Below are positions 1 to 10,108 of a stretch of 11,055 bases of DNA, one piece after another. Position numbers and translations under genes: made by a program. The DNA is from a virus. The notes under the pieces were generated by a model. That model was not told where the DNA came from. It was given only the letters and a program-made list of their open reading frames with translations, and did no database searches. Every line of letters begins with the position of its first letter. The first letter of the stretch is position 1. The stretch lies in UHGV virus genome UHGV-0100061; one strand, written 5' to 3'.

Positions 1-133
1 GTTCATCTATCGAATCGCCACACTCACAAGAATGAGTGGCAGATATAGCCTGGTGGTTCAGACGACGCATTTTTATTGCTGTATTGCGCTGTAATTCTTC
101 GATTTCTGATGCTGAATCAATGATGTCTGCCAT
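1..133 (-). CDS. DksA/TraR-family-like small protein, N-terminal 44 codons (ORF runs off the window start)
   Basis: Manual minus-strand translation from ATG at 133..131 gives MADIIDSASEIEELQRNTAIKMRRLNHQAISATHSCECGDSIDE. The CxCG-x2-I-x-E stretch resembles the first zinc-finger knuckle of TraR/DksA proteins. In-frame TAA lies 3 codons upstream of the ATG. SD is weak and too close (GGAAG adjacent to ATG). Family assignment is from memory. Confidence 0.4.
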   Translation of the reverse strand, partial: MADIIDSASEIEELQRNTAIKMRRLNHQAISATHSCECGDSIDE

Positions 134-182
134 CTTCCATTAATCTCTGAATTGTTGGTTAATACGCTTGAGGGTGAATGCG

Positions 183-209
183 AATAATAAAAAAGGAGCC
201 TGTAGCTCC
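183..209 (-). terminator. Rho-independent terminator downstream of the DGQHR gene
   Basis: Plus strand 195..209 is ggagc-ctgta-gctcc (5-bp GC-rich stem, 5-nt loop), preceded on the plus strand by an A-rich run (184..194). On the minus strand this reads hairpin followed by TTTTTTATTATT. Confidence 0.5.
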
Positions 210-286
210 ATGAAGATTTTGTTTTTCATGCTCACCGTTCCTTAAAGACGCCGTACAGCATGCTGATATGAGACAATGTTGATTCA

Positions 287-1351
287 TTAAGTTGATTCCA
301 GACTTCCTTTGGTAAAAGCTTGTATCAGTCTGTTTGCTGCTGCTTTCTGCGCTGCCACATTGGCAATAACAGATAGTTTTTCCTGGCTGGCTTTCGTGCA
401 GATCCCCGCCCAGTTATCCATCAGAAAAAAATCCTCTCTTTCTGCAGAGCTGGTAGTTGCACATAGTTTTTCGATCATAGAAGTTATTTCTGCGATGGAA
501 TGATTAACCATCATCTGTTGAACCGCAAAACCGAAAGCGTTAATCATTACTCCATGGAACTGAATATAATCGCGCTTGTACGTAGCGTGGTGTACACCAT
601 GTCGGATTGAGTCAATCTGAGTTAGTGTAATCCATGCCTCCCAGACAGATTCTATATATCCCATTTCAAGTTGTTGATTGCCGTTCCTGGCGAACTTTGA
701 CGTTGCATCAGTGAGTGCCTTGAAACTCACCCACATATTACTTTTTAATGGCACTACGTTGTGTTCAAAATCGGTTATATCGGCAAATACAGTATGTTGG
801 GTCAGGAAGGATATCATTCCCTGAGCAATATCATCCCGGCCGTTATACGCCATATTGATGGTCGCTGATGGCTTAGAAACGTTGTTATTTATGTCCGAAA
901 AGAACTGCTGCCGGGTTTTTAGCGGCAGATTCATTGTAAGCATCATGGGAACCATGAGCGTTGATGGGGAACTTCGGCAAAATATCTCAATGCCAGCTGC
1001 ACGATGTTGACCATCAAAAAGTTTTATTTCGGCGTCGAGGGGAATTCTGGCTATACCAACATTTGTGTTGCCAAACGGTACAAATTCTATATTCGAATCA
1101 CAGTTACCTACGAGAGGGGGAATGATAAAAGGCTCATTTCTTGAGTCTGCGTTAGTGAGATAATTTAAAAATTTTCGTACTCGATTTGGATTAATTTCTC
1201 GCTGAGAGCGTTCCAGTGTATGGCCGTAATTATCTGAAGCGAGGAAACGAGCCAGCGATCTTCCTGGTATGGTAAGGAAGAGTGTAACAGTACCACCCTG
1301 TACACCTTGCGATGCCGGAAATTCGAATGAATGATTACCAACCTGACTCAT
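287..1351 (-). CDS. DGQHR-domain protein, DndB-like (ParB/sulfiredoxin-like superfamily); stand-alone cargo gene
   Basis: 354-aa ORF. N-terminal FEFPASQGVQGGTVTLFLTIPGRSLARFL and downstream LERSQREINPNRV...KLFDGQHRAAGI match the hallmark DndB/DGQHR signature (FPA..G.QGG...Y, QR, DGQHR). Strong SD (AGGAGG, plus 1356..1361 complement) 4 nt before ATG at 1351..1349. Start overlaps the upstream ORF stop as ATGA. Confidence 0.85.
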   Translation of the reverse strand: MSQVGNHSFEFPASQGVQGGTVTLFLTIPGRSLARFLASDNYGHTLERSQREINPNRVRKFLNYLTNADSRNEPFIIPPLVGNCDSNIEFVPFGNTNVGIARIPLDAEIKLFDGQHRAAGIEIFCRSSPSTLMVPMMLTMNLPLKTRQQFFSDINNNVSKPSATINMAYNGRDDIAQGMISFLTQHTVFADITDFEHNVVPLKSNMWVSFKALTDATSKFARNGNQQLEMGYIESVWEAWITLTQIDSIRHGVHHATYKRDYIQFHGVMINAFGFAVQQMMVNHSIAEITSMIEKLCATTSSAEREDFFLMDNWAGICTKASQEKLSVIANVAAQKAAANRLIQAFTKGSLEST

Positions 1352-1506
1352 ATATCCTCCTGTTTATTATTTATCTTCTCAGCCAGCCCCTGTGCTTTCA
1401 GTGGATTTCTGATAACAGAAAGACCGGGAAATACCCAGCCTCGCTTTGTAATGGAGTAGACGAAAGTGATCGCGCCTACCCGGATATTATCGTGAGGATG
1501 CGTCAT
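1348..1506 (-). CDS. Small orf60a-like protein (52 aa), translationally coupled between exo and the DGQHR gene
   Basis: Manual translation: [55 protein letters not shown] 1506..1504 overlaps the exo stop (ATGA); stop 1350..1348 overlaps the DGQHR start (ATGA). N-terminal part resembles lambda orf60a as recalled. Absent from the supplied ORF track (below its length cutoff). Confidence 0.5.
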
Positions 1507-2183
1507 CGCCATTGCTCCCCAAATACAAAACCAATTTCAGCCAGTGCCTCGTCCATTTTTTCGATGAACTCCGGCACCATCTCGTCAAAACTCGCCATGT
1601 ACTTTTCATCCCGCTCAACCACGACATAATGCAGTCCTTCACGCTTCATACGCGGGTCATAGTTGGCAAAGTACCAGGCATCTTTTCGTGTCACCCACAT
1701 GCTGTACTGCACCTGGGCCATGTAAGCCGACTTTATGGCCTCGAAACCACCGAGCCGGAACTTCATGAAATCCCGGGAGGTAAACGGGCATTTCAGCTCA
1801 AGGCCATTGCCGTCACTGCATAAACCATCGGGAGAGCAGGCGGTGCGCATACTTTCGTCGCGATAGATGATCGGGGATTCGGTAACATTCACGCCGGAAG
1901 TGAATTCAAACAGAGTTCTGGCGTCGTTCTCGTACTGTTTTCCCCAGGCCAGCGCCTTAGCATTAACTTCCGGAGCCACACCGGTGCAAACCTCAGCCAG
2001 CAGGGTGTGGAAGTAGGACATTTTCATGTCAGGCCACTTCTTTCCTGAGCGGGGCTTTGCTATCACGTTGTGAACTTCTGAAGCGGTGATGACGCCGAGC
2101 CGTAATTTGTGCCATGTATCATCCCCCTGTTCGACAGCTCTCACGTCGATCCCGGTACGCTGCACGATAATGTCCGGTGTCAT
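1503..2183 (-). CDS. exo: Lambda-type exonuclease (Red alpha)
   Basis: 226-aa [25 protein letters not shown]...GFVFGEQWR, recognised as lambda Exo over its full length. Start overlaps the bet stop (ATGA at 2180..2183). Confidence 0.95.
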
Positions 2184-2965
2184 GCTGCCACCTTCTGCTC
2201 AGTGGCTTTCTGTTTCAGGAATCCAAGAGCTTTCACTGCTTCGGCCTGTGTCAGTTCTGACGATGCGCGAATGTCGCGGCGAAATATCTGGGAACAGAGC
2301 GGCAATAAGTCGTCATCCCATGTTTTATCCAGGGCGATCAGCAGAGTGTTAATCTCTTGCATGGTTTCATCGTTAACCGGAGTGATGTCGCGTTCTGGCT
2401 GACGTTCTGCAGTGTATGCGGTATTTTCGACAATGCGCTCGGCTTCATCCTTGTCATAGATACCAGCAAATCCGAAGGCGAGACGGGCACACTGAATCAT
2501 GGCTTTATGCCGTAACATCCGTTTGGGATGCGACTGCCACGGCCCCGTGATTTCTCTGCCTTCGCGGGTTTTGAATGGTTCGCGGCGGCATTCATCCATC
2601 CACTCGGTAACGCAGATCGGATGATTGCGGTCCTTGCGGTAAATCCGGCATGTGCAGGATTCATTGTCCTGCTCAAAGTCCATACCATCAAACTGCTGGT
2701 TTTCATTGATGATGCGGGACCAGCCATCAACGCCCACCACCGGAACGATGCCGTTCTGCTTGTCAGGGAAGGCGTAAATTTCTTTCGTCCACGGATTAAG
2801 GCCGTACTGGTTGGCGACGATCAACAATGCGATGAACTGCGCATCGCTGGCATCACCTTTAAATGCCGTCTGGCGAAGAGTGGTGATCAGTTCCTGTGGG
2901 TCGACAGAATCCATGCCGACACGTTCAGCCAGCTTCCCTGCCAGCGTTGCGAGTGCTGTACTCAT
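2180..2965 (-). CDS. bet: Lambda-type single-strand annealing protein Bet (Red beta)
   Basis: 261-aa [23 protein letters not shown]...KATEQKVAA, recognised as lambda Bet. Sits directly upstream of exo in the same operon. Confidence 0.95.
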
Positions 2966-2970
2966 CCGTT

Positions 2971-3387
2971 TTATACCTCTGAATCAATATCAACCTGGTG
3001 GCGGGCAATAGTTTCAACCATGTACCGGATGTGTTCTGCCATGCGCTCCTGAAACTCAACATCGTCATCAAACGCACGGGTAATGGCTTTTTTGCTGGCC
3101 CCGTGGCGTTGCAAATGATCGATGCATAGCGATTCAAACAGGTGCTGGGGCAGGCCTTTTTCCATGTCGTCTGCCAGTTCTGCCTCTTTCTCTTCACGGG
3201 CGATCTGCTGGTAGTGACGCGCCCAGCTCTGAGCCTCAAGACGATCCTGAATGTAATAAGCGTTCATGGCTGAACTCCTGAAATAGCTGTGAAAATATCG
3301 TCCGCGAAATGCCGGGCTGATTAGGAAAACAGGGAAGGGGGGTAGTGAATGCTTTTGCTTGATCTCAGTTTCAGTATTAATATCCAT
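2971..3387 (-). CDS. gam: Gam, RecBCD inhibitor (long form; short form likely starts at 3267)
   Basis: 138-aa ORF with the lambda Gam sequence. Internal ATG at 3267..3265 ([13 protein letters not shown]...) has a strong SD (CAGGAG) about 7 nt upstream, whereas the 3387 start has none. Confidence 0.9.
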
Positions 3388-3690: not shown

Positions 3691-4059
3691 TCAGGCGGCT
3701 TTGATAGTCATATCATCTGGATCAAATATTCCTGATGTATCGATATCGGTAATTCTTATTCCTTCGCTACCATCCATTGGAGGCCATCCTTCCTGACCAT
3801 TTCCATCATTCCAGTCGAACTCACACACAACACCATATGCATTTAAGTCGCTTGAAATTGCTATAAGCAGAGCATGTTGCGCCAGCATGATTAATACAGC
3901 ATTTAATACAGAGCCGTGTTTATTGAGTCGGTATTCAGAGTCTGACCAGAAATTATTAATCTGGTGAAGTTTTTCCTCTGTCATTACGTCATGATCGATT
4001 TCAATTTCTATTGATGCTTTCCAGTCGTAATCAATGATGTATTTTTTGATGTTTGACAT
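3691..4059 (-). CDS. ea10: Ea10 (lambda early-left protein, ssb-like)
   Basis: 122-aa ORF MSNIKKYIIDYDWKASIEIEIDHDV...DPDDMTIKAA, recognised as lambda Ea10. Position downstream of cIII in the pL operon matches lambda. Confidence 0.8.
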   Translation of the reverse strand: MSNIKKYIIDYDWKASIEIEIDHDVMTEEKLHQINNFWSDSEYRLNKHGSVLNAVLIMLAQHALLIAISSDLNAYGVVCEFDWNDGNGQEGWPPMDGSEGIRITDIDTSGIFDPDDMTIKAA

Positions 4060-4319: not shown

Positions 4320-4901
4320 ATGAACAACTCATGGTGGCAGGAACTAATGCATTTTTTCCTGCAAGGAATGACACTTAAACAGTTGATTCATATGCTAATC
4401 ATCCTAATCATATTGATTATTGTTATGCCTGTAAGCGTAAAAGAATGGATAAACCTGCATAATCCAGAAATCCTTCCTCATTACTGGATGTATTACATCC
4501 TGTTGTTTTGCGTTAGCTATGTGCTTAACGGCGTTGTTAATTCCGCTTATCACGCTGTGACTGAAAGAATTGAGATATTCGCTGCTCAGAAGCGCAAATC
4601 TAAAGAAGAGAAATACGTGCAAGATTTGTTTGATTCGTTAACTCTTGGAGAAAGAGCGTATTTGGCATTCGCTGTAGCCGCTAATAACCAGCTAAAGACA
4701 GAAAAGGGAAGCCCTGAAGCAATCTCATTGCTCGAAAAAGGGCTTCTTATTCGGGTACCTTCTGCTACTGGATATCCTGAAATCGACCGTTTTGTTATCC
4801 CGGAACGCTATAGAAATGAGTGCTACATTAGGTTTGCTGGGAAGAAAGACAGTCTTATGGATGAACTTATCGCTCAGGATAAGCATGGCAAAAACAAGTA
4901 A
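4320..4901 (+). CDS. sieB: SieB superinfection exclusion protein
   Basis: 193-aa ORF MNNSWWQELMHFFLQGMTLKQLIHMLIILIILIIVMPVSVKEWINLH..., recognised as lambda SieB, with an N-terminal transmembrane segment. Plus strand, converging on N as in lambda. Confidence 0.9.
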   Translation: MNNSWWQELMHFFLQGMTLKQLIHMLIILIILIIVMPVSVKEWINLHNPEILPHYWMYYILLFCVSYVLNGVVNSAYHAVTERIEIFAAQKRKSKEEKYVQDLFDSLTLGERAYLAFAVAANNQLKTEKGSPEAISLLEKGLLIRVPSATGYPEIDRFVIPERYRNECYIRFAGKKDSLMDELIAQDKHGKNK

Positions 4902-4917
4902 TTAGCAAATTAATTTA

Positions 4918-5190
4918 TCATCTCGCCGTCAGTTGTTTTGATTTCCGGTAGCCTGCCGCGTAAATGGCTACGTTTGGCAGGCAAATACTTCCACTGCATT
5001 CATCTGCCTTCTTGCAGCGAAGGCTTCCGAGTGATGCTGCTTTGTCTGCTCTGACGCAACCAGAGAGCTTTAGCGCAATTTTTCGCGCCAGTCGCTGTTC
5101 TTGCATTGCCTGCTCACGTTGAGCCTGTCTGCGTGCTCTGCGGCGATTTCTGGCGTTATCGTCAGCCAGATATGTAATGACTACTGCCAT
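4918..5190 (-). CDS. N: N-like transcription antitermination protein (arginine-rich motif)
   Basis: 90-aa ORF with N-terminal arginine-rich motif DNARNRRRARRQAQREQ and C-terminal AIYAAGYRKSKQLTAR resembling P22 gp24/N family. GGAGG SD 5 nt upstream of ATG 5190..5188. First gene downstream of pL/nutL. Confidence 0.8.
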   Translation of the reverse strand: MAVVITYLADDNARNRRRARRQAQREQAMQEQRLARKIALKLSGCVRADKAASLGSLRCKKADECSGSICLPNVAIYAAGYRKSKQLTAR

Positions 5191-5481: not shown

Positions 5482-5504
5482 AAAAAAAGGGGCGAATGCC
5501 CCTT
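5482..5504 (-). terminator. Rho-independent terminator at the 3' end of c2
   Basis: Plus 5487..5504 aaggggc-gaat-gcccctt (7-bp stem), preceded on the plus strand by gaaaaaaa. Minus strand reads hairpin then TTTTTTTC. Overlaps the c2 stop codon (5503..5505). Confidence 0.5.
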
Positions 5505-6153
5505 ATGGAAGGTTTGCTATTTTTGCATCGACAACTACACCGATGATTTTGCAGTTCCCGTTGATCTCAATCATCGGATATTGTGGGTTAAGTGGTTTTA
5601 GAAACCTTCTGCCAGCATCAATAACTAACTTCTTGAAAGTTGCCTCGTTTTCTCCTTCGAGCTTTGCCACTACCAGCTTCCCATTACGAGGTTCTACTTC
5701 AGGATCGACTAGTATTATCATCCCTTCCGGGATGCTAAGACCGGCTGGAGCCGTCATCGAATCACCCTTTACGTCCAGCCAAAACGAATCTTCTGAACAA
5801 TCTACGGTTGTATCGTACCAGTTATCTATTGCACGCTTATGATATGGCTCTACAGCTTCCATCCAACATCCTGCGCTTACCCAACTAATTAGAGGATACG
5901 AACCTCTTGGATCATGCCTGCTGTGATAGGCAATGTTTGAAAGACTATCTTCTCCTTTCAACAAGTAATCAGGGGAGCACTGTAAAGCCTTGGCTAAAGC
6001 CAATAGGTTTTCGCCATTGGGCTCAGTTTCAGAACGCTCCCATTGGGAAATAGCAACATTAGACACGCCAACCATCTTGCCAAGGGCAGCCTGCCTAATC
6101 TTAAGTTCTTTTCTGCGAGCGCGAATACGCTCACCCATCAGTTGTGTATTCAT
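5503..6153 (-). CDS. c2: P22-type c2 prophage repressor (lambda cI-like, LexA-type autocleavage)
   Basis: 216-aa ORF MNTQLMGERIRARRKELKIRQAALGKMVGVSNVAISQWERSE... with HTH N-domain, Ala-Gly cleavage site (VSAGCW) and S24 peptidase Ser/Lys (GDSM ... KL). Recognised as P22 C2. No SD before the ATG (leaderless-like, as for lambda cI from PRM). Confidence 0.95.
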   Translation of the reverse strand: MNTQLMGERIRARRKELKIRQAALGKMVGVSNVAISQWERSETEPNGENLLALAKALQCSPDYLLKGEDSLSNIAYHSRHDPRGSYPLISWVSAGCWMEAVEPYHKRAIDNWYDTTVDCSEDSFWLDVKGDSMTAPAGLSIPEGMIILVDPEVEPRNGKLVVAKLEGENEATFKKLVIDAGRRFLKPLNPQYPMIEINGNCKIIGVVVDAKIANLP

Positions 6154-8798: not shown

Positions 8799-9239
8799 AT
8801 GAAAAAACTAACCTTTGAAATTCGATCTCCAGCACATCAGCAAAACGCTATTCACGCAGTACAGCAAATCCTTCCAGACCCAACCAAACCAATCGTAGTA
8901 ACCATTCAGGAACGCAACCGCAGCTTAGACCAAAACAGGAAGCTATGGGCCTGCTTAGGTGACGTCTCTCGTCAGGTTGAATGGCATGGTCGCTGGCTGG
9001 ATGCAGAAAGCTGGAAGTGTGTGTTTACCGCAGCATTAAAGCAGCAGGATGTTGTTCCTAACCTTGCCGGGAATGGCTTTGTGGTAATAGGCCAGTCAAC
9101 CAGCAGGATGCGTGTAAGCGAATTTGCGGAGCTATTAGAGCTTATACAGGCATTCGGTACAGAGCGTGGCGTTAAGTGGTCAGACGAAGCGCGACTGGCT
9201 CTGGAGTGGAAAGCGCGATGGGGAGACAGGGCTGCATGA
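8799..9239 (+). CDS. ninB: NinB (Orf-family recombination mediator)
   Basis: 146-aa protein from ATG 8799 (MKKLTFEIRSPAHQQNAIHAVQQILPDPTKPIVVTIQERNRSLDQNRKLW...), recognised as lambda NinB. The track ORF start at 8781 is a non-ATG upstream extension. Confidence 0.9.
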   Translation: MKKLTFEIRSPAHQQNAIHAVQQILPDPTKPIVVTIQERNRSLDQNRKLWACLGDVSRQVEWHGRWLDAESWKCVFTAALKQQDVVPNLAGNGFVVIGQSTSRMRVSEFAELLELIQAFGTERGVKWSDEARLALEWKARWGDRAA

Positions 9240-10108
9240 TAAATGTCGTTAGTTTCTCCGGTGGCAGGACGTCAGCATATTTGCTCTGGCTAATGGAGCA
9301 AAAGCGACGGGCAGGTGAAGACGTGCATTACGTTTTCATGGATACAGGTTGTGAACATCCAATGACATATCGGTTTGTCAGGGAAGTTGTGAAGTTCTGG
9401 GATATACCGCTCACCGTATTGCAGGTTGATATCAACCCAGAGCTTGGGCAGCCAAATGGTTATACGGTATGGGAACCAAAGGATATTCAGACGCGACTGC
9501 CTGTTCTGAAGCCATTTATCGATATGGTAAAGAAATATGGCACTCCATACGTCGGCGGCGCGTTCTGCACTGACAGATTAAAACTCGTTCCCTTCACCAA
9601 ATACTGTGATGACCATTTCGGGCGAGGGAATTACACCACGTGGATTGGCATCAGAGCTGATGAACCGAAGCGGCTAAAGCCAAAGCCTGGAATCAGATAT
9701 CTTGCTGAACTGTCAGACTTTGAGAAGGAAGATATCCTCGCATGGTGGAAGCAACAACCATTCGATTTGCAAATACCGGAACATCTCGGTAACTGCATAT
9801 TCTGCATTAAAAAATCAACGCAAAAAATCGGACTTGCCTGCAAAGATGAGGAGGGATTGCAGCGTGTTTTTAATGAGGTCATCACGGGATCGCATGTGCG
9901 TGACGGACATCGGGAAACGCCAAAGGAGATTATGTACCGAGGAAGAATGTCGCTGGACGGTATCGCGAAAATGTATTCAGAAAATGATTATCAAGCCCTG
10001 TATCAGGACATGGTACGAGCTAAAAGATTCGATACCGGCTCTTGTTCTGAGTCATGCGAAATATTTGGAGGGCAGCTTGATTTCGACTTCGGGAGGGAGG
10101 CTGCATGA
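9236..10108 (+). CDS. ninC: NinC (PAPS-reductase-like nin-region protein)
   Basis: 290-aa protein from ATG 9236 ([42 protein letters not shown]...), with an SGG phosphoadenosine-phosphosulfate-reductase-like motif. ATGA overlap with the ninB stop. Recognised as lambda NinC. Confidence 0.9.

What the first reader, a model, noticed from the sequence alone, without database searches (positions are those of the whole stretch)
287..1351. Stand-alone DGQHR-domain (DndB-like) protein as cargo in the variable slot downstream of exo
The 354-aa protein carries the DndB/DGQHR signature (FEFPASQGVQGGTVTLF..., QREINPNRV, FDGQHRAAGI). No dndCDE, dndA or ssp-type partner genes are present in the window. It replaces the lambda orf63/orf61/ea22 block between an orf60a-like ORF and a TraR-like ORF, a slot that commonly holds accessory and defence or counter-defence genes in lambdoid prophages. 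The gene has its own strong SD, is coupled by ATGA to the upstream ORF and is followed by its own intrinsic terminator. A DndB-like DNA-binding or nucleotide-binding protein expressed from pL could act as a single-gene anti-phage or anti-restriction factor, or a sensor of modified DNA; that function is inference.
Basis: partly seen in the sequence, partly recalled or inferred. Interest (0 to 1): 0.8.

Follow-up and report, generated by a model that had tools for sequence, protein, structure and literature searches.

The report
Solo DndB-like gene in lambdoid prophage
A lambda-like prophage carries, in place of two small conserved lambda genes next to its recombination genes, a well-conserved 354-residue protein of the DndB/DGQHR (ParB-like nucleotide-switch) family with no Dnd partners; the gene is real and already annotated in about 5% of complete E. 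coli genomes, but what it does is still unknown.

Summary
Window 287-1351 (minus strand) encodes a 354-aa protein that passes the DGQHR-domain and Pfam DndB models. It carries the QR, DGQHR and FxxxN motifs and has a predicted ParB/sulfiredoxin-fold N-domain. It fails the DndB equivalog model (107 vs 328 bits), and no dnd, ssp or dpd genes are nearby.

Three details need correcting:
- The 1081-bp cassette replaces only lambda orf61+orf63. ea22 lies outside the window.
- The hairpin terminator sits in the lambda-homologous flank and is identical in lambda, so it is not the gene's own.
- The slot is not a hotspot. orf61-orf63 fills it at 4477 places in E. coli genomes, the DGQHR allele at 286.

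The gene has no promoter of its own and is translationally coupled (ATGA) into the pL operon, so I expect early lytic expression rather than expression in the lysogen. It is under purifying selection.

Relatives sit in the same early-left position in many enterobacterial and Vibrio phages. In 53 of 130 contexts a DNA methyltransferase from one of five families lies 1-3 genes downstream, against 1 of 367 upstream. The same methyltransferase usually occurs without the DGQHR gene, so the link is suggestive, not proven.

Best guess: an early NTP-gated DNA-binding accessory of DNA-modification or anti-restriction functions. RefSeq and PHROGs already list the family, with unknown function. Interest is moderate.

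The parts
287..1351 (-). DGQHR-domain (DndB-like) protein gene, 354 aa
   Evidence: ORF. TIGR03187 188.8 bits and TIGR03233 only 106.9 of 328. PF14072 158.2 bits. PHROG 7901 'unknown function' 716 bits. RefSeq names it 'DGQHR domain-containing protein', WP_021557045.1, 100% identical. Purifying selection: 17 synonymous-only against 4 amino-acid-changing polymorphic codons, and dN/dS 0.07 against the 73% relative.
884..1330 (-). N-terminal ParB/sulfiredoxin-fold (putative NTP-binding) domain, about residues 8-156
1001..1015 (-). DGQHR pentapeptide (residues 113-117)
   Evidence: Translation. Invariant in 36 homologues. It is the signature of TIGR03187/PF14072 (PMC4619093).
1199..1204 (-). QR pair (Q50 R51) of the DGQHR domain
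   Evidence: Translation. Invariant. Motif described in PMC4619093.
887..901 (-). FxxxN motif (F151-N155, FSDIN), start of the invariant FFSDINNNxSKP stretch
   Evidence: Translation. Invariant. The adjacent loop 157-166 has pLDDT below 50.
287..750 (-). C-terminal all-helical region (about residues 201-354). Residues up to about 286 still lie within the Pfam DndB model. The last 70 or so are specific to the subfamily.
   Evidence: Secondary structure. The Pfam match covers residues 11-286 and profile positions 1-284 of 338. No convincing structural neighbour and no nuclease motif or Pfam hit.
1348..1351 (-). ATGA start/stop overlap with the upstream ORF (translational coupling)
   Evidence: Sequence ...caggaggatatATGAgtcagg.
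1356..1361 (-). Shine-Dalgarno AGGAGG, 4 nt before the ATG
   Evidence: Sequence.
1348..1512 (-). DUF1317 / lambda orf60a-like ORF (54 aa), overlapping exo at its 5' end
   Evidence: PF07026 103.8 bits. The lambda RefSeq record annotates orf60a as DUF1317 (row H124). A DUF1317 gene is the immediate upstream neighbour in 43 of 86 DGQHR loci.
268..1348 (.). Non-lambda cassette (1081 bp, GC about 42% against 52-54% in exo-bet) that replaces lambda 30748-31193 (orf61+orf63)
   Evidence: blastn breakpoints. Composition.
183..209 (-). Terminator-like hairpin GGAGCUACAGGCUCC plus U6AUUAUU, 78 nt after the stop codon. It belongs to the conserved lambda flank.
   Evidence: Scan. Fold. Identical in lambda.
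1..133 (-). 5' part (44 codons) of the TraR/DksA-like zinc-finger gene, running off the window
   Evidence: Translation. RefSeq annotation of identical neighbours.
1503..3387 (-). exo-bet-gam recombination module directly upstream in the same pL transcription unit
   Evidence: ORFs. RefSeq annotation of the near-identical prophage.

Best explanation
The gene encodes a functional member of a phage-specific subfamily of DGQHR/DndB-like proteins. It has an N-terminal ParB/sulfiredoxin-fold nucleotide-binding domain and a DndB-type helical domain, and no catalytic effector domain.

It entered the lambda exo-xis region as a precise one-gene, low-GC cassette that displaced orf61 and orf63. It has no promoter of its own and is translationally coupled to the orf60a homologue. 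It should therefore be made from the N-antiterminated pL transcript early after infection or induction, together with Exo, Bet and Gam, and not in the repressed lysogen.

The most likely mechanism is an NTP-gated DNA-binding switch or clamp acting on DNA early in lytic growth. It would serve as an accessory or regulator of DNA-modification-based self-protection (anti-restriction). Two relatives behave this way. DndB tunes phosphorothioation, and DpdB's ATPase is required for DpdA to modify DNA without forming a stable complex with it. In many related phages the gene lies directly upstream of an orphan DNA methyltransferase. In this prophage lineage it is a solo copy, so any such partner would have to act in trans (a host methylase or one encoded elsewhere in the prophage), or the protein works alone.

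Shown here: gene identity, motifs, fold, cassette borders, operon position, purifying selection and the family-wide neighbourhood statistics.

Inferred: timing of expression, NTPase and DNA-binding activity, and the link to DNA modification or anti-restriction.
For: Identity:
- TIGR03187 188.8 bits and PF14072 158.2 bits.
- QR, DGQHR and FxxxN motifs present and invariant in 36 homologues.

Functional gene: 17 synonymous-only against 4 amino-acid-changing polymorphic codons among 17 E. coli alleles; dN/dS 0.07 against the 73% relative.

Operon position:
- All genes from cI/N through gam-bet-exo-DUF1317 to this gene are on the minus strand.
- ATGA overlap and AGGAGG.
- Promoter-like sites are not above the shuffled expectation (4 found, 3.9 expected), and none lies upstream of the gene on its strand.
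- Relatives in Salmonella SPN1S, Klebsiella, Serratia, Tatumella and Vibrio phages occupy the same early-left position, between the recombination genes and xis/int on the same strand.

Link to DNA modification:
- In 130 distinct contexts a DNA methyltransferase is at +1 in 21/129, +2 in 30/122 and +3 in 3/104. That is 53/130 contexts and 12/29 lineages at 90% identity, including relatives only 31-36% identical to the window protein. Upstream (-1 to -3) the count is 1/367.
- Five Pfam methyltransferase families are involved: MT-A70, Dam PF05869, D12, C5 and N6_N4. Many have 4-nt overlaps with the DGQHR gene.
- A DGQHR / HTH-Zn-ribbon gene pair is followed by a methyltransferase in 26 of 27 contexts.
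- The wide-flank solo contexts I inspected carry a methylase elsewhere in the phage: Serratia MT-A70, Tatumella Dam, Klebsiella Dam, and an N6-adenine methyltransferase in the E. coli 027_SK3 nin region.

Family biochemistry from papers:
- DndB is an ATP-modulated regulator of the dnd operon (PMC4507180; cited in PMC10164549).
- A DndB-like protein binds ATP and GTP, and ParB-CTPase folds fused to DNA methyltransferases are enriched in prophages (PMC12704722).
- DpdB's ATPase is required for DpdA-mediated DNA modification, and no stable complex forms between them (PMC10164549).
Against: - No experiment exists for any member of this phage subfamily. PHROG 7901 is 'unknown function', and literature searches found nothing.
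- The methyltransferase link may be positional rather than functional. The same MT-A70 clade (88-100% identity) has no DGQHR gene within 4 kb upstream in 76 of 79 loci. The methylase clearly works without it, and the DGQHR cassette looks like an optional insertion next to a resident methylase.
- About half of the contexts, and all 25 contexts of the window's own lineage, have no methyltransferase nearby.
- The window itself holds no methyltransferase in 11 kb. Its ninB-ninE slot holds NinC instead.
- Partners from five unrelated methyltransferase families make a specific protein-protein partnership unlikely.
- NTP binding, NTP hydrolysis and DNA binding were not tested here.
- Many E. coli copies sit in decayed prophage remnants that have lost the pL/immunity region. 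Expression there, if any, must be driven differently.
Confidence: 0.35

Rival explanations
1. It is a developmental or transcriptional regulator of the exo-xis region. Like DndB, which is a DNA-binding repressor, it would bind specific phage or host promoter DNA in an NTP-modulated way and shift the lysis-lysogeny or induction outcome. This would functionally replace the orf61/orf63 genes it displaced.
For: It occupies exactly the place of orf61 and orf63. Papers report that those genes influence lysogenisation and induction (PMC6213356, PMC5575149, PMC3824215). DndB binds the dnd promoter region (PMC4507180). The protein has no enzymatic effector domain. It sits next to HTH-repeat proteins in many relatives.
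Against: There is no recognisable HTH or other specific DNA-binding domain in the protein. It shares no homology with orf61 or orf63. No repeated operator-like sites were examined or found. The family occurs in phages with very different regulatory circuits.
Confidence: 0.2
2. It is a counter-defence decoy. A stand-alone DGQHR/ParB-like NTPase domain would poison or titrate host immune proteins built on the homologous fold (DndB-regulated Dnd modification, or the DUF262-type nucleases SspE, DndI, GmrSD and BrxU). It could do so by forming dead heterodimers or by occupying their DNA or PT sites. This would be useful to phages whose methylated DNA attracts modification-dependent nucleases.
Against: This is purely analogical. 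No interaction data exist. The hosts of this lineage were not shown to carry Dnd, Ssp or DUF262 systems. The protein is large and carries a conserved C-terminal domain, which is unlike typical small decoys.
Confidence: 0.12
3. It is a prophage-encoded anti-phage defence or superinfection-exclusion gene, a single-gene sensor of foreign or modified DNA.
For: It matches a PADLOC model (DndB). It is low-GC cargo in a prophage. It is retained intact in decayed prophage remnants that have lost replication and immunity genes, which would fit selection by the host. DUF262 relatives are nucleases in defence systems.
Against: The PADLOC hit is to the regulator or modification component, not to an effector. 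There is no nuclease or toxic domain. There is no promoter of its own, and the gene is coupled into the repressed pL operon. The window's known exclusion gene sieB, by contrast, is on the opposite strand. Homologues also occur in 83-kb Vibrio phages next to DNA ligase and RdgC genes, where no integrase was seen in the 15 kb inspected.
Confidence: 0.1
4. It is an accessory factor of phage recombination, replication or repair, a ParB-like DNA-end or nick-binding NTPase working with Exo/Bet or RecE/RecT.
For: It is always next to recombination genes: Exo-Bet here, RecE/RecT in SPN1S and L007, RdgC in Tatumella and Vibrio phages, and Rv2179c-like 3'-5' exonucleases in Serratia and Tatumella. One relative is fused to MutS domain I (P0231).
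Against: Most lambdoid phages do without it. The orf61-orf63 allele is about 16 times more common. Module order in early-left operons is conserved regardless of function, so adjacency is weak evidence.
Confidence: 0.1

Closest known systems
DndB (regulator of the dndBCDE phosphorothioation operon; TIGR03233 / PF14072)
   Same: Same Pfam family and DGQHR domain, with the QR, DGQHR and FxxxN motifs. Similar length (354 aa against a 355-position model). The alignment covers residues 8-302. The ParB/Srx fold is also shared.
   Different: It scores 106.9 bits against the 328-bit equivalog cutoff. There are no dndA/C/D/E or dndFGH genes nearby. It is phage-borne and lies in an early lytic operon. 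The last 70 or so residues fall outside the model.
DpdB (ParB-like ATPase of the Dpd 7-deazaguanine DNA-modification system)
   Same: Both are stand-alone ParB-fold NTPases with a helical C-domain and no nuclease. DpdB assists a DNA-modifying enzyme encoded next to it without forming a stable complex (PMC10164549). Its top structural neighbours (PadC, pNOB8 ParB, sulfiredoxin, Atu1540, SspE) are the same as those found here.
   Different: DpdB carries DGQQR (DUF262-like), not DGQHR. Its partner is a TGT-like transglycosylase, and none is present here. It is chromosomal and part of a restriction-modification island.
ParB-CTPase-fold / DNA-methyltransferase fusion proteins of prophages and plasmids
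   Same: A ParB-superfamily nucleotide-binding domain is joined with a DNA methyltransferase on mobile elements (PMC12704722). The DGQHR-then-methyltransferase gene pairs in SPN1S-like, Klebsiella and Vibrio phages look like a split version of this.
   Different: Those fusions use the canonical ParBc domain (PF02195), which does not hit this protein at E<=1. In this window there is no methyltransferase at all, and the adjacency elsewhere may be positional.
DUF262-type enzymes (GmrSD, SspE, DndI, BrxU)
   Different: Those enzymes have a C-terminal HNH/DUF1524 nuclease that carries out restriction. This protein has none.
Lambda exo-xis region genes orf61 and orf63
   Same: Same genomic slot and same transcription unit, and dispensable early genes.
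   Different: No sequence similarity. They are 61-63-aa proteins, not a 354-aa ParB-fold protein.

Membership tests
DGQHR domain family (TIGR03187 / Pfam PF14072 DndB) | Profile-HMM score above the curated cutoff | tested here: met
   TIGR03187 188.8 bits against 58.85, full-length match 1-276 of 276. PF14072 158.2 bits against 29.1.
DGQHR domain family (TIGR03187 / Pfam PF14072 DndB) | Nearly invariant DGQHR pentapeptide plus the QR pair and FxxxN motif (PMC4619093) | tested here: met
   DGQHR at residues 113-117, QR at 50-51, FSDIN at 151-155. All are invariant in 36 homologues.
DGQHR domain family (TIGR03187 / Pfam PF14072 DndB) | ParB/sulfiredoxin fold of the N-terminal domain | tested here: met
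DndB proper (TIGR03233 equivalog, component of Dnd phosphorothioation systems) | Score at or above the equivalog cutoff | tested here: not met
   106.9 bits against a cutoff of 328.
DndB proper (TIGR03233 equivalog, component of Dnd phosphorothioation systems) | Encoded with dndCDE (and dndA/iscS, often dndFGH) | tested here: not met
   No such genes in the 11-kb window or in 25-28-kb regions around identical copies. NinC is a PP-loop protein with only weak SspD/DndC-like similarity, and it assorts independently of this gene.
DndB proper (TIGR03233 equivalog, component of Dnd phosphorothioation systems) | ATP-modulated binding to the dnd promoter; repression of phosphorothioation | not testable with these tools
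   Needs biochemistry and genetics.
DpdB (Dpd system ATPase) | DGQQR motif and adjacency to a DpdA (TGT-like) gene | tested here: not met
   The motif is DGQHR. No TGT-like gene is in the window or in the annotated neighbourhoods.
DUF262 / GmrSD-SspE-DndI type nucleases | C-terminal HNH/DUF1524 nuclease domain fused to the ParB-like NTPase | tested here: not met
Canonical partition ParB (ParABS) | ParBc domain (PF02195) with HTH, and a neighbouring parA | tested here: not met
   No PF02195 hit at E<=1. The PHROG ParB-like family matches only at E 0.011. No parA gene is in the window.
Known anti-phage defence systems (PADLOC-DB 2.0) | Match to an effector or a complete system | tested here: not met
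   The only hit is the DndB model, 126 bits. The other Dnd components are absent.
Phage DGQHR-methyltransferase gene pair (pattern seen here, not a described family) | DNA methyltransferase within three genes downstream on the same strand | tested here: not met
   In the window lineage the downstream genes are TraR-like, DUF4222, xis and int. None of its 25 contexts has a methyltransferase. The pattern holds in 53/130 contexts family-wide.

The most novel reading that the evidence does not exclude
Phage DGQHR proteins could form an uncharacterised class of early anti-defence factors. They would be NTP-gated ParB-like DNA clamps acting in one of two ways. They might license or spread the action of whatever orphan DNA-modifying enzyme is available, including host enzymes acting in trans for solo copies such as this one. 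Or they might neutralise host immune proteins built on the same fold (Dnd/Ssp regulators, DUF262 type IV nucleases). Either would be a new mechanistic role for the ParB-CTPase fold in the phage-host conflict.
Probability: 0.15. Interest if true: 0.7.

Novelty: new variant of a known kind. Interest (0 to 1): 0.4.

Why it matters
The ParB/Srx nucleotide-switch fold is being recognised well beyond chromosome segregation, and DndB-type members are known only as parts of bacterial DNA-modification systems.

This gene belongs to a conserved subfamily under purifying selection. The subfamily is carried without Dnd partners in the early operons of many temperate phages of Enterobacterales, and this gene is in about 5% of complete E. 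coli genomes. No function has been assigned to any member.

If it modulates DNA modification or blocks host immunity, it would add a new type of early phage counter-defence. It would also give a tractable lambda-based model. If it only regulates phage development, it still shows that the 'conserved' exo-xis genes orf61/orf63 can be swapped for an unrelated protein.

As it stands, the finding is a correctly identified and already annotated gene of unknown function. It is not a new system.

Tried and rejected
1. NinC as a hidden Dnd/Ssp-like partner. NinC (9176-10108) is a PAPS-reductase/PP-loop protein with a weak SspD hit (51.9 bits) and marginal DndC hits. Lambda itself has NinC. The closest DGQHR-bearing prophage has an N6-adenine methyltransferase in that slot, and NinC-bearing relatives lack the DGQHR gene. 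Rejected.

2. DUF1317/orf60a as an obligate partner. It is the immediate upstream gene in only 43 of 86 loci. A 55-aa protein or other genes replace it elsewhere. Lambda has orf60a without the DGQHR gene. Rejected as obligate.

3. An obligate DGQHR-methyltransferase module. The downstream enrichment is strong. The reciprocal control failed, however: 76 of 79 loci with the same MT-A70 clade lack the DGQHR gene. Kept only as a suggestive association.

4. Sequence search of the PDB found nothing relevant; the best hit was E 0.6 to a monooxygenase. Foldseek against the PDB gave no hit at E<=0.001. No DndB-type structure is available for comparison.

5. Megablast of the gene against 50,697 phage records gave no match. 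The lineage is seen only in prophages and IMG/VR contigs.

6. Literature searches for DGQHR, DndB-like plus phage, DndB plus prophage plus anti-defense, and PF14072 found no study of a phage solo DGQHR protein. The Iyer et al. 2013 paper (PMC3763556) was not held.

7. The 42-aa ORF at 159-287, which overlaps the stop as TAATG, runs through the conserved terminator and is not annotated in RefSeq. I treated it as a chance ORF.

8. The internal terminator-like site at 1420-1442 and the promoter-like sites are at chance level.
Full report
**What is in the sequence.** The window is the early region of a lambdoid prophage. On the minus strand it reads cI (5503-6153), N (4918-5190), a DUF2528 gene, cIII, kil, gam (2971-3387), bet (2180-2965), exo (1503-2183), a 54-aa DUF1317/orf60a homologue (1348-1512), the gene in question (287-1351), and the start of a TraR/DksA-like gene (133-1). 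On the plus strand it carries sieB, cro, cII, O, P, ren, NinB, NinC, NinD, NinE and NinX. RefSeq annotation of a 98.8%-identical prophage agrees.

Its ATG overlaps the stop of the DUF1317 ORF as ATGA, and AGGAGG lies 4 nt upstream. Promoter-like sites in 1-1700 are no more frequent than in shuffled sequence (4 found, 3.9 expected), and none lies upstream of the gene on its strand.

**Identity of the protein.**
- It passes the NCBIfam DGQHR-domain model (TIGR03187, 188.8 bits, cutoff 58.85, end-to-end) and Pfam DndB (PF14072, 158.2 bits, cutoff 29.1).
- It matches the PADLOC DndB model at 126 bits.
- It fails the DndB equivalog model TIGR03233 (106.9 bits against 328).
- The three signatures of the DGQHR domain described in PMC4619093 are present and invariant across 36 homologues: the QR pair (Q50 R51), DGQHR (113-117) and FxxxN (FSDIN, 151-155).
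- The C-terminal half is helical and has no informative neighbour and no nuclease signature.
- No DndB-type structure has been solved.
- PHROGs lists the family (phrog_7901, 716 bits) as 'unknown function'. RefSeq calls it 'DGQHR domain-containing protein'.

**Corrections to the observation.** blastn against lambda places window 1-267 on lambda 30481-30747 and window 1349-1800 on lambda 31194-31645.
- The 1081-bp cassette has GC about 42%, against 52-54% in exo-bet. It replaces lambda 30748-31193, which is orf61 and orf63 only. ea22 would lie beyond the left end of the window.
- The hairpin-plus-T-tract at 183-209 lies in the lambda-homologous flank and is identical in lambda. It is not a terminator belonging to the cassette.
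- The slot is not a visibly variable hotspot. In the phage collection, records that match both flanks have the lambda-type spacing almost without exception.
- The orf61-orf63 block is found at 4477 places in 3274 of 5426 complete E. coli genomes. The DGQHR allele is found at 286 places in 284 genomes, all at 99% identity or more.
- The gene has no megablast match among 50,697 phage records.
- Many of the E. coli copies lie in decayed prophage remnants (at the icd and argU/DLP12 sites). These have lost bet, the immunity region or the late genes but keep this ORF intact.

**Is it a working gene?** Among 17 alleles of the E. coli lineage, 17 polymorphic codons are synonymous-only and 4 change the amino acid. 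Against the 73%-identical relative, dN/dS is 0.07. Against more distant relatives, synonymous sites are saturated while dN is 0.25-0.33. This is clear purifying selection.

**The wider family.** The word-indexed protein search found 247 relatives at E<=1e-5. The 120 listed are 53-73% identical, apart from the 99%-identical E. coli cluster. Those that carry a source name come from E. coli, Salmonella, Klebsiella, Citrobacter, Enterobacter, Serratia, Cronobacter, Hafnia, Erwinia and Tatumella. An exhaustive search of 1.84 billion cluster representatives found 586 clusters at E<=0.001.

In every neighbourhood with enough flank to judge (SPN1S-like Salmonella phages, Klebsiella phages, Serratia and Tatumella prophages, Vibrio phage p42), the gene sits on the cI-to-int strand. 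It lies between the recombination genes (Exo-Bet, RecE-RecT, RdgC or a 3'-5' exonuclease) and xis/int. I therefore infer expression from the early-left operon during infection or induction. Remote relatives (about 32% identity) are also present in 83-kb Vibrio phages, next to DNA ligase and RdgC genes.

**Partners.** I extracted 130 distinct gene contexts from 160 loci. The immediate neighbours vary.
- Upstream, the gene is preceded by DUF1317 in 43 of 86 loci, by a 55-aa protein, or by other genes. A 4-nt overlap is usual.
- Downstream, one pattern stands out. A DNA methyltransferase lies at +1 in 21/129, +2 in 30/122 and +3 in 3/104 contexts.
- That is 53/130 contexts and 12 of 29 lineages at 90% identity, including lineages only 31-36% identical to the window protein. 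At positions -1 to -3 the count is 1/367.
- Five unrelated Pfam methyltransferase families are involved: MT-A70, Dam PF05869, D12, C5 and N6_N4.
- An uncharacterised HTH-repeat/zinc-ribbon protein (154 or 179 aa) follows the DGQHR gene in 27 contexts, and a methyltransferase follows it in 26 of those. In IMG/VR the 154-aa form was found only in this arrangement: 19 of 20 loci, the last next to a DGQHR remnant.

The reciprocal control weakens a functional reading. Of 79 loci that carry the same MT-A70 clade (88-100% identity), 76 have no DGQHR gene within 4 kb upstream. There the methylase directly follows exo and a 144-aa gene. The methylase is therefore a common resident of this position, and the DGQHR cassette is an optional insertion next to it.

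The window's own lineage has no methyltransferase downstream in any of its 25 contexts. The closest complete prophage carries an N6-adenine methyltransferase in the ninB-ninE slot, where the window has NinC.

**How it most likely works.** Three things are shown here:
- a ParB/Srx-fold DGQHR protein without an effector domain;
- translational coupling into the early-left operon;
- a conserved sequence, with frequent but not obligatory placement upstream of orphan DNA methylases.

Papers establish the following about relatives:
- DndB binds DNA and tunes phosphorothioation, and its activity is modulated by ATP (PMC4507180; Xia 2019 as cited in PMC10164549).
- A DndB-like protein binds ATP and GTP, and ParB-CTPase folds fused to DNA methyltransferases are enriched in prophages (PMC12704722).
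- DpdB's ATPase is required for DpdA to modify DNA, although the two do not form a stable complex (PMC10164549).

From these I infer, at about 35% confidence, an NTP-gated DNA-binding switch made early in lytic growth. It would assist or regulate DNA-modification-based self-protection. In this solo lineage it would act either in trans or on its own.

The rivals, all untested:
- an exo-xis developmental or transcriptional regulator (about 20%);
- a decoy against Dnd, Ssp or DUF262 immunity (about 12%);
- a lysogen-protecting defence gene (about 10%), disfavoured by the lack of a promoter and of an effector domain;
- a recombination accessory (about 10%).

**Comparison with known families.** It is a member of the DGQHR/DndB Pfam family; all defining features were tested and met. 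It is not DndB proper (equivalog score and dnd context both not met), not DpdB, not a DUF262 nuclease and not a partition ParB. It works in a context not described for the family, a solo gene in a phage early operon. I found no paper on such proteins.

**Verdict.** The finding is real and correctly named. Three of its contextual claims need correction, and its functional proposal remains speculation. Databases already annotate the gene. I rate it a new variant of a known kind, with interest 0.4.

Noticed in passing
window 9176-10108 (+): The NinC-like protein is a PAPS-reductase/PP-loop protein with a weak PADLOC SspD hit (51.9 bits) and marginal DndC hits, so it belongs to the same superfamily as the sulfur-inserting enzymes of the Dnd and Ssp systems. 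In the closest relative prophage (E. coli 027_SK3) the same ninB-ninE slot holds an N6-adenine DNA methyltransferase instead. NinC assorts independently of the DGQHR gene.
   Followed up: partly
L047:7065-7529 and L050:7046-7585 (also L046, L053-L076 and others): An uncharacterised protein with repeated HTH-like units comes in two forms. The 154-aa form has a C-terminal CxxC...CCxxCC zinc-ribbon-like tail. The 179-aa form hits HTH_23 and Sigma70_r4. It follows the DGQHR gene in 27 contexts and is followed by a DNA methyltransferase in 26 of them, the family of which is swapped (MT-A70, Dam or N6_N4). The 154-aa form was found in IMG/VR only in this arrangement. It has no Pfam or PADLOC family.
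   Followed up: partly
L168 (NZ_LR134239.1) and L169 (NZ_CP029108.1), around locus positions 12000-21400: Many E. coli copies of the gene lie in a decayed icd-site prophage remnant: int, xis, DUF4222, TraR, DGQHR, DUF1317, exo, then a truncated bet or replication genes and IS elements. A McrBC-like AAA ATPase plus McrC pair lies beside it. The DGQHR ORF stays intact while the neighbouring phage genes are broken.
   Followed up: partly
window 159-287 (-): A 42-aa ORF starts with an ATG that overlaps the DGQHR stop codon (TAATG) and reads through the conserved terminator hairpin. RefSeq does not annotate it. It is probably a chance ORF.
   Followed up: partly
window 183-209 (-); lambda 30663-30689: The hairpin GGAGCUACAGGCUCC followed by U6AUUAUU is base-for-base identical between this prophage and lambda. 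It lies between orf61 (here the DGQHR gene) and the TraR-like gene. It looks like a conserved intrinsic terminator or RNA element of the pL operon's exo-xis region. I did not identify it with a named lambda terminator.
   Followed up: partly
protein P0231 (591 aa): In this relative a full DndB domain (354.7 bits) is fused to MutS domain I, the mismatch-binding domain. This hints that some family members read DNA lesions or mismatches.
   Followed up: no
L003 (Klebsiella phage ST101-KPC2phi6.3) 5088-7077: Two ParB-superfamily proteins lie almost in tandem. A 261-aa protein annotated as 'Spo0J superfamily' sits two genes upstream of the DGQHR gene, and a DUF550 (dATP/dGTP pyrophosphohydrolase) protein follows it.
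   Followed up: no
L176 (IMGVR_UViG_2751185931_000005) 3777-3989: Only the last 71 or so codons of a DGQHR gene remain, upstream of an intact 154-aa HTH/Zn-ribbon gene. This is a natural deletion of the DGQHR gene within the three-gene arrangement.
   Followed up: no
proteins P0187, P0195, P0203, P0227 (513-541 aa): A group of relatives carries an unannotated N-terminal extension of about 150-170 residues before a full-length DndB domain. Another group (450-540 aa, including Vibrio phage p42) carries a C-terminal extension of 100-190 residues. Neither extension has a Pfam match.
   Followed up: no
L005 (Pseudoalteromonas phage KB12-38) 1-7553: A 31%-identical DndB-like gene lies in a cluster with two PAPS-reductase genes, a C5 DNA methylase and a DNA-ligase-like gene. 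This may be a phage-borne DNA-modification cluster, unlike the solo E. coli gene.
   Followed up: no
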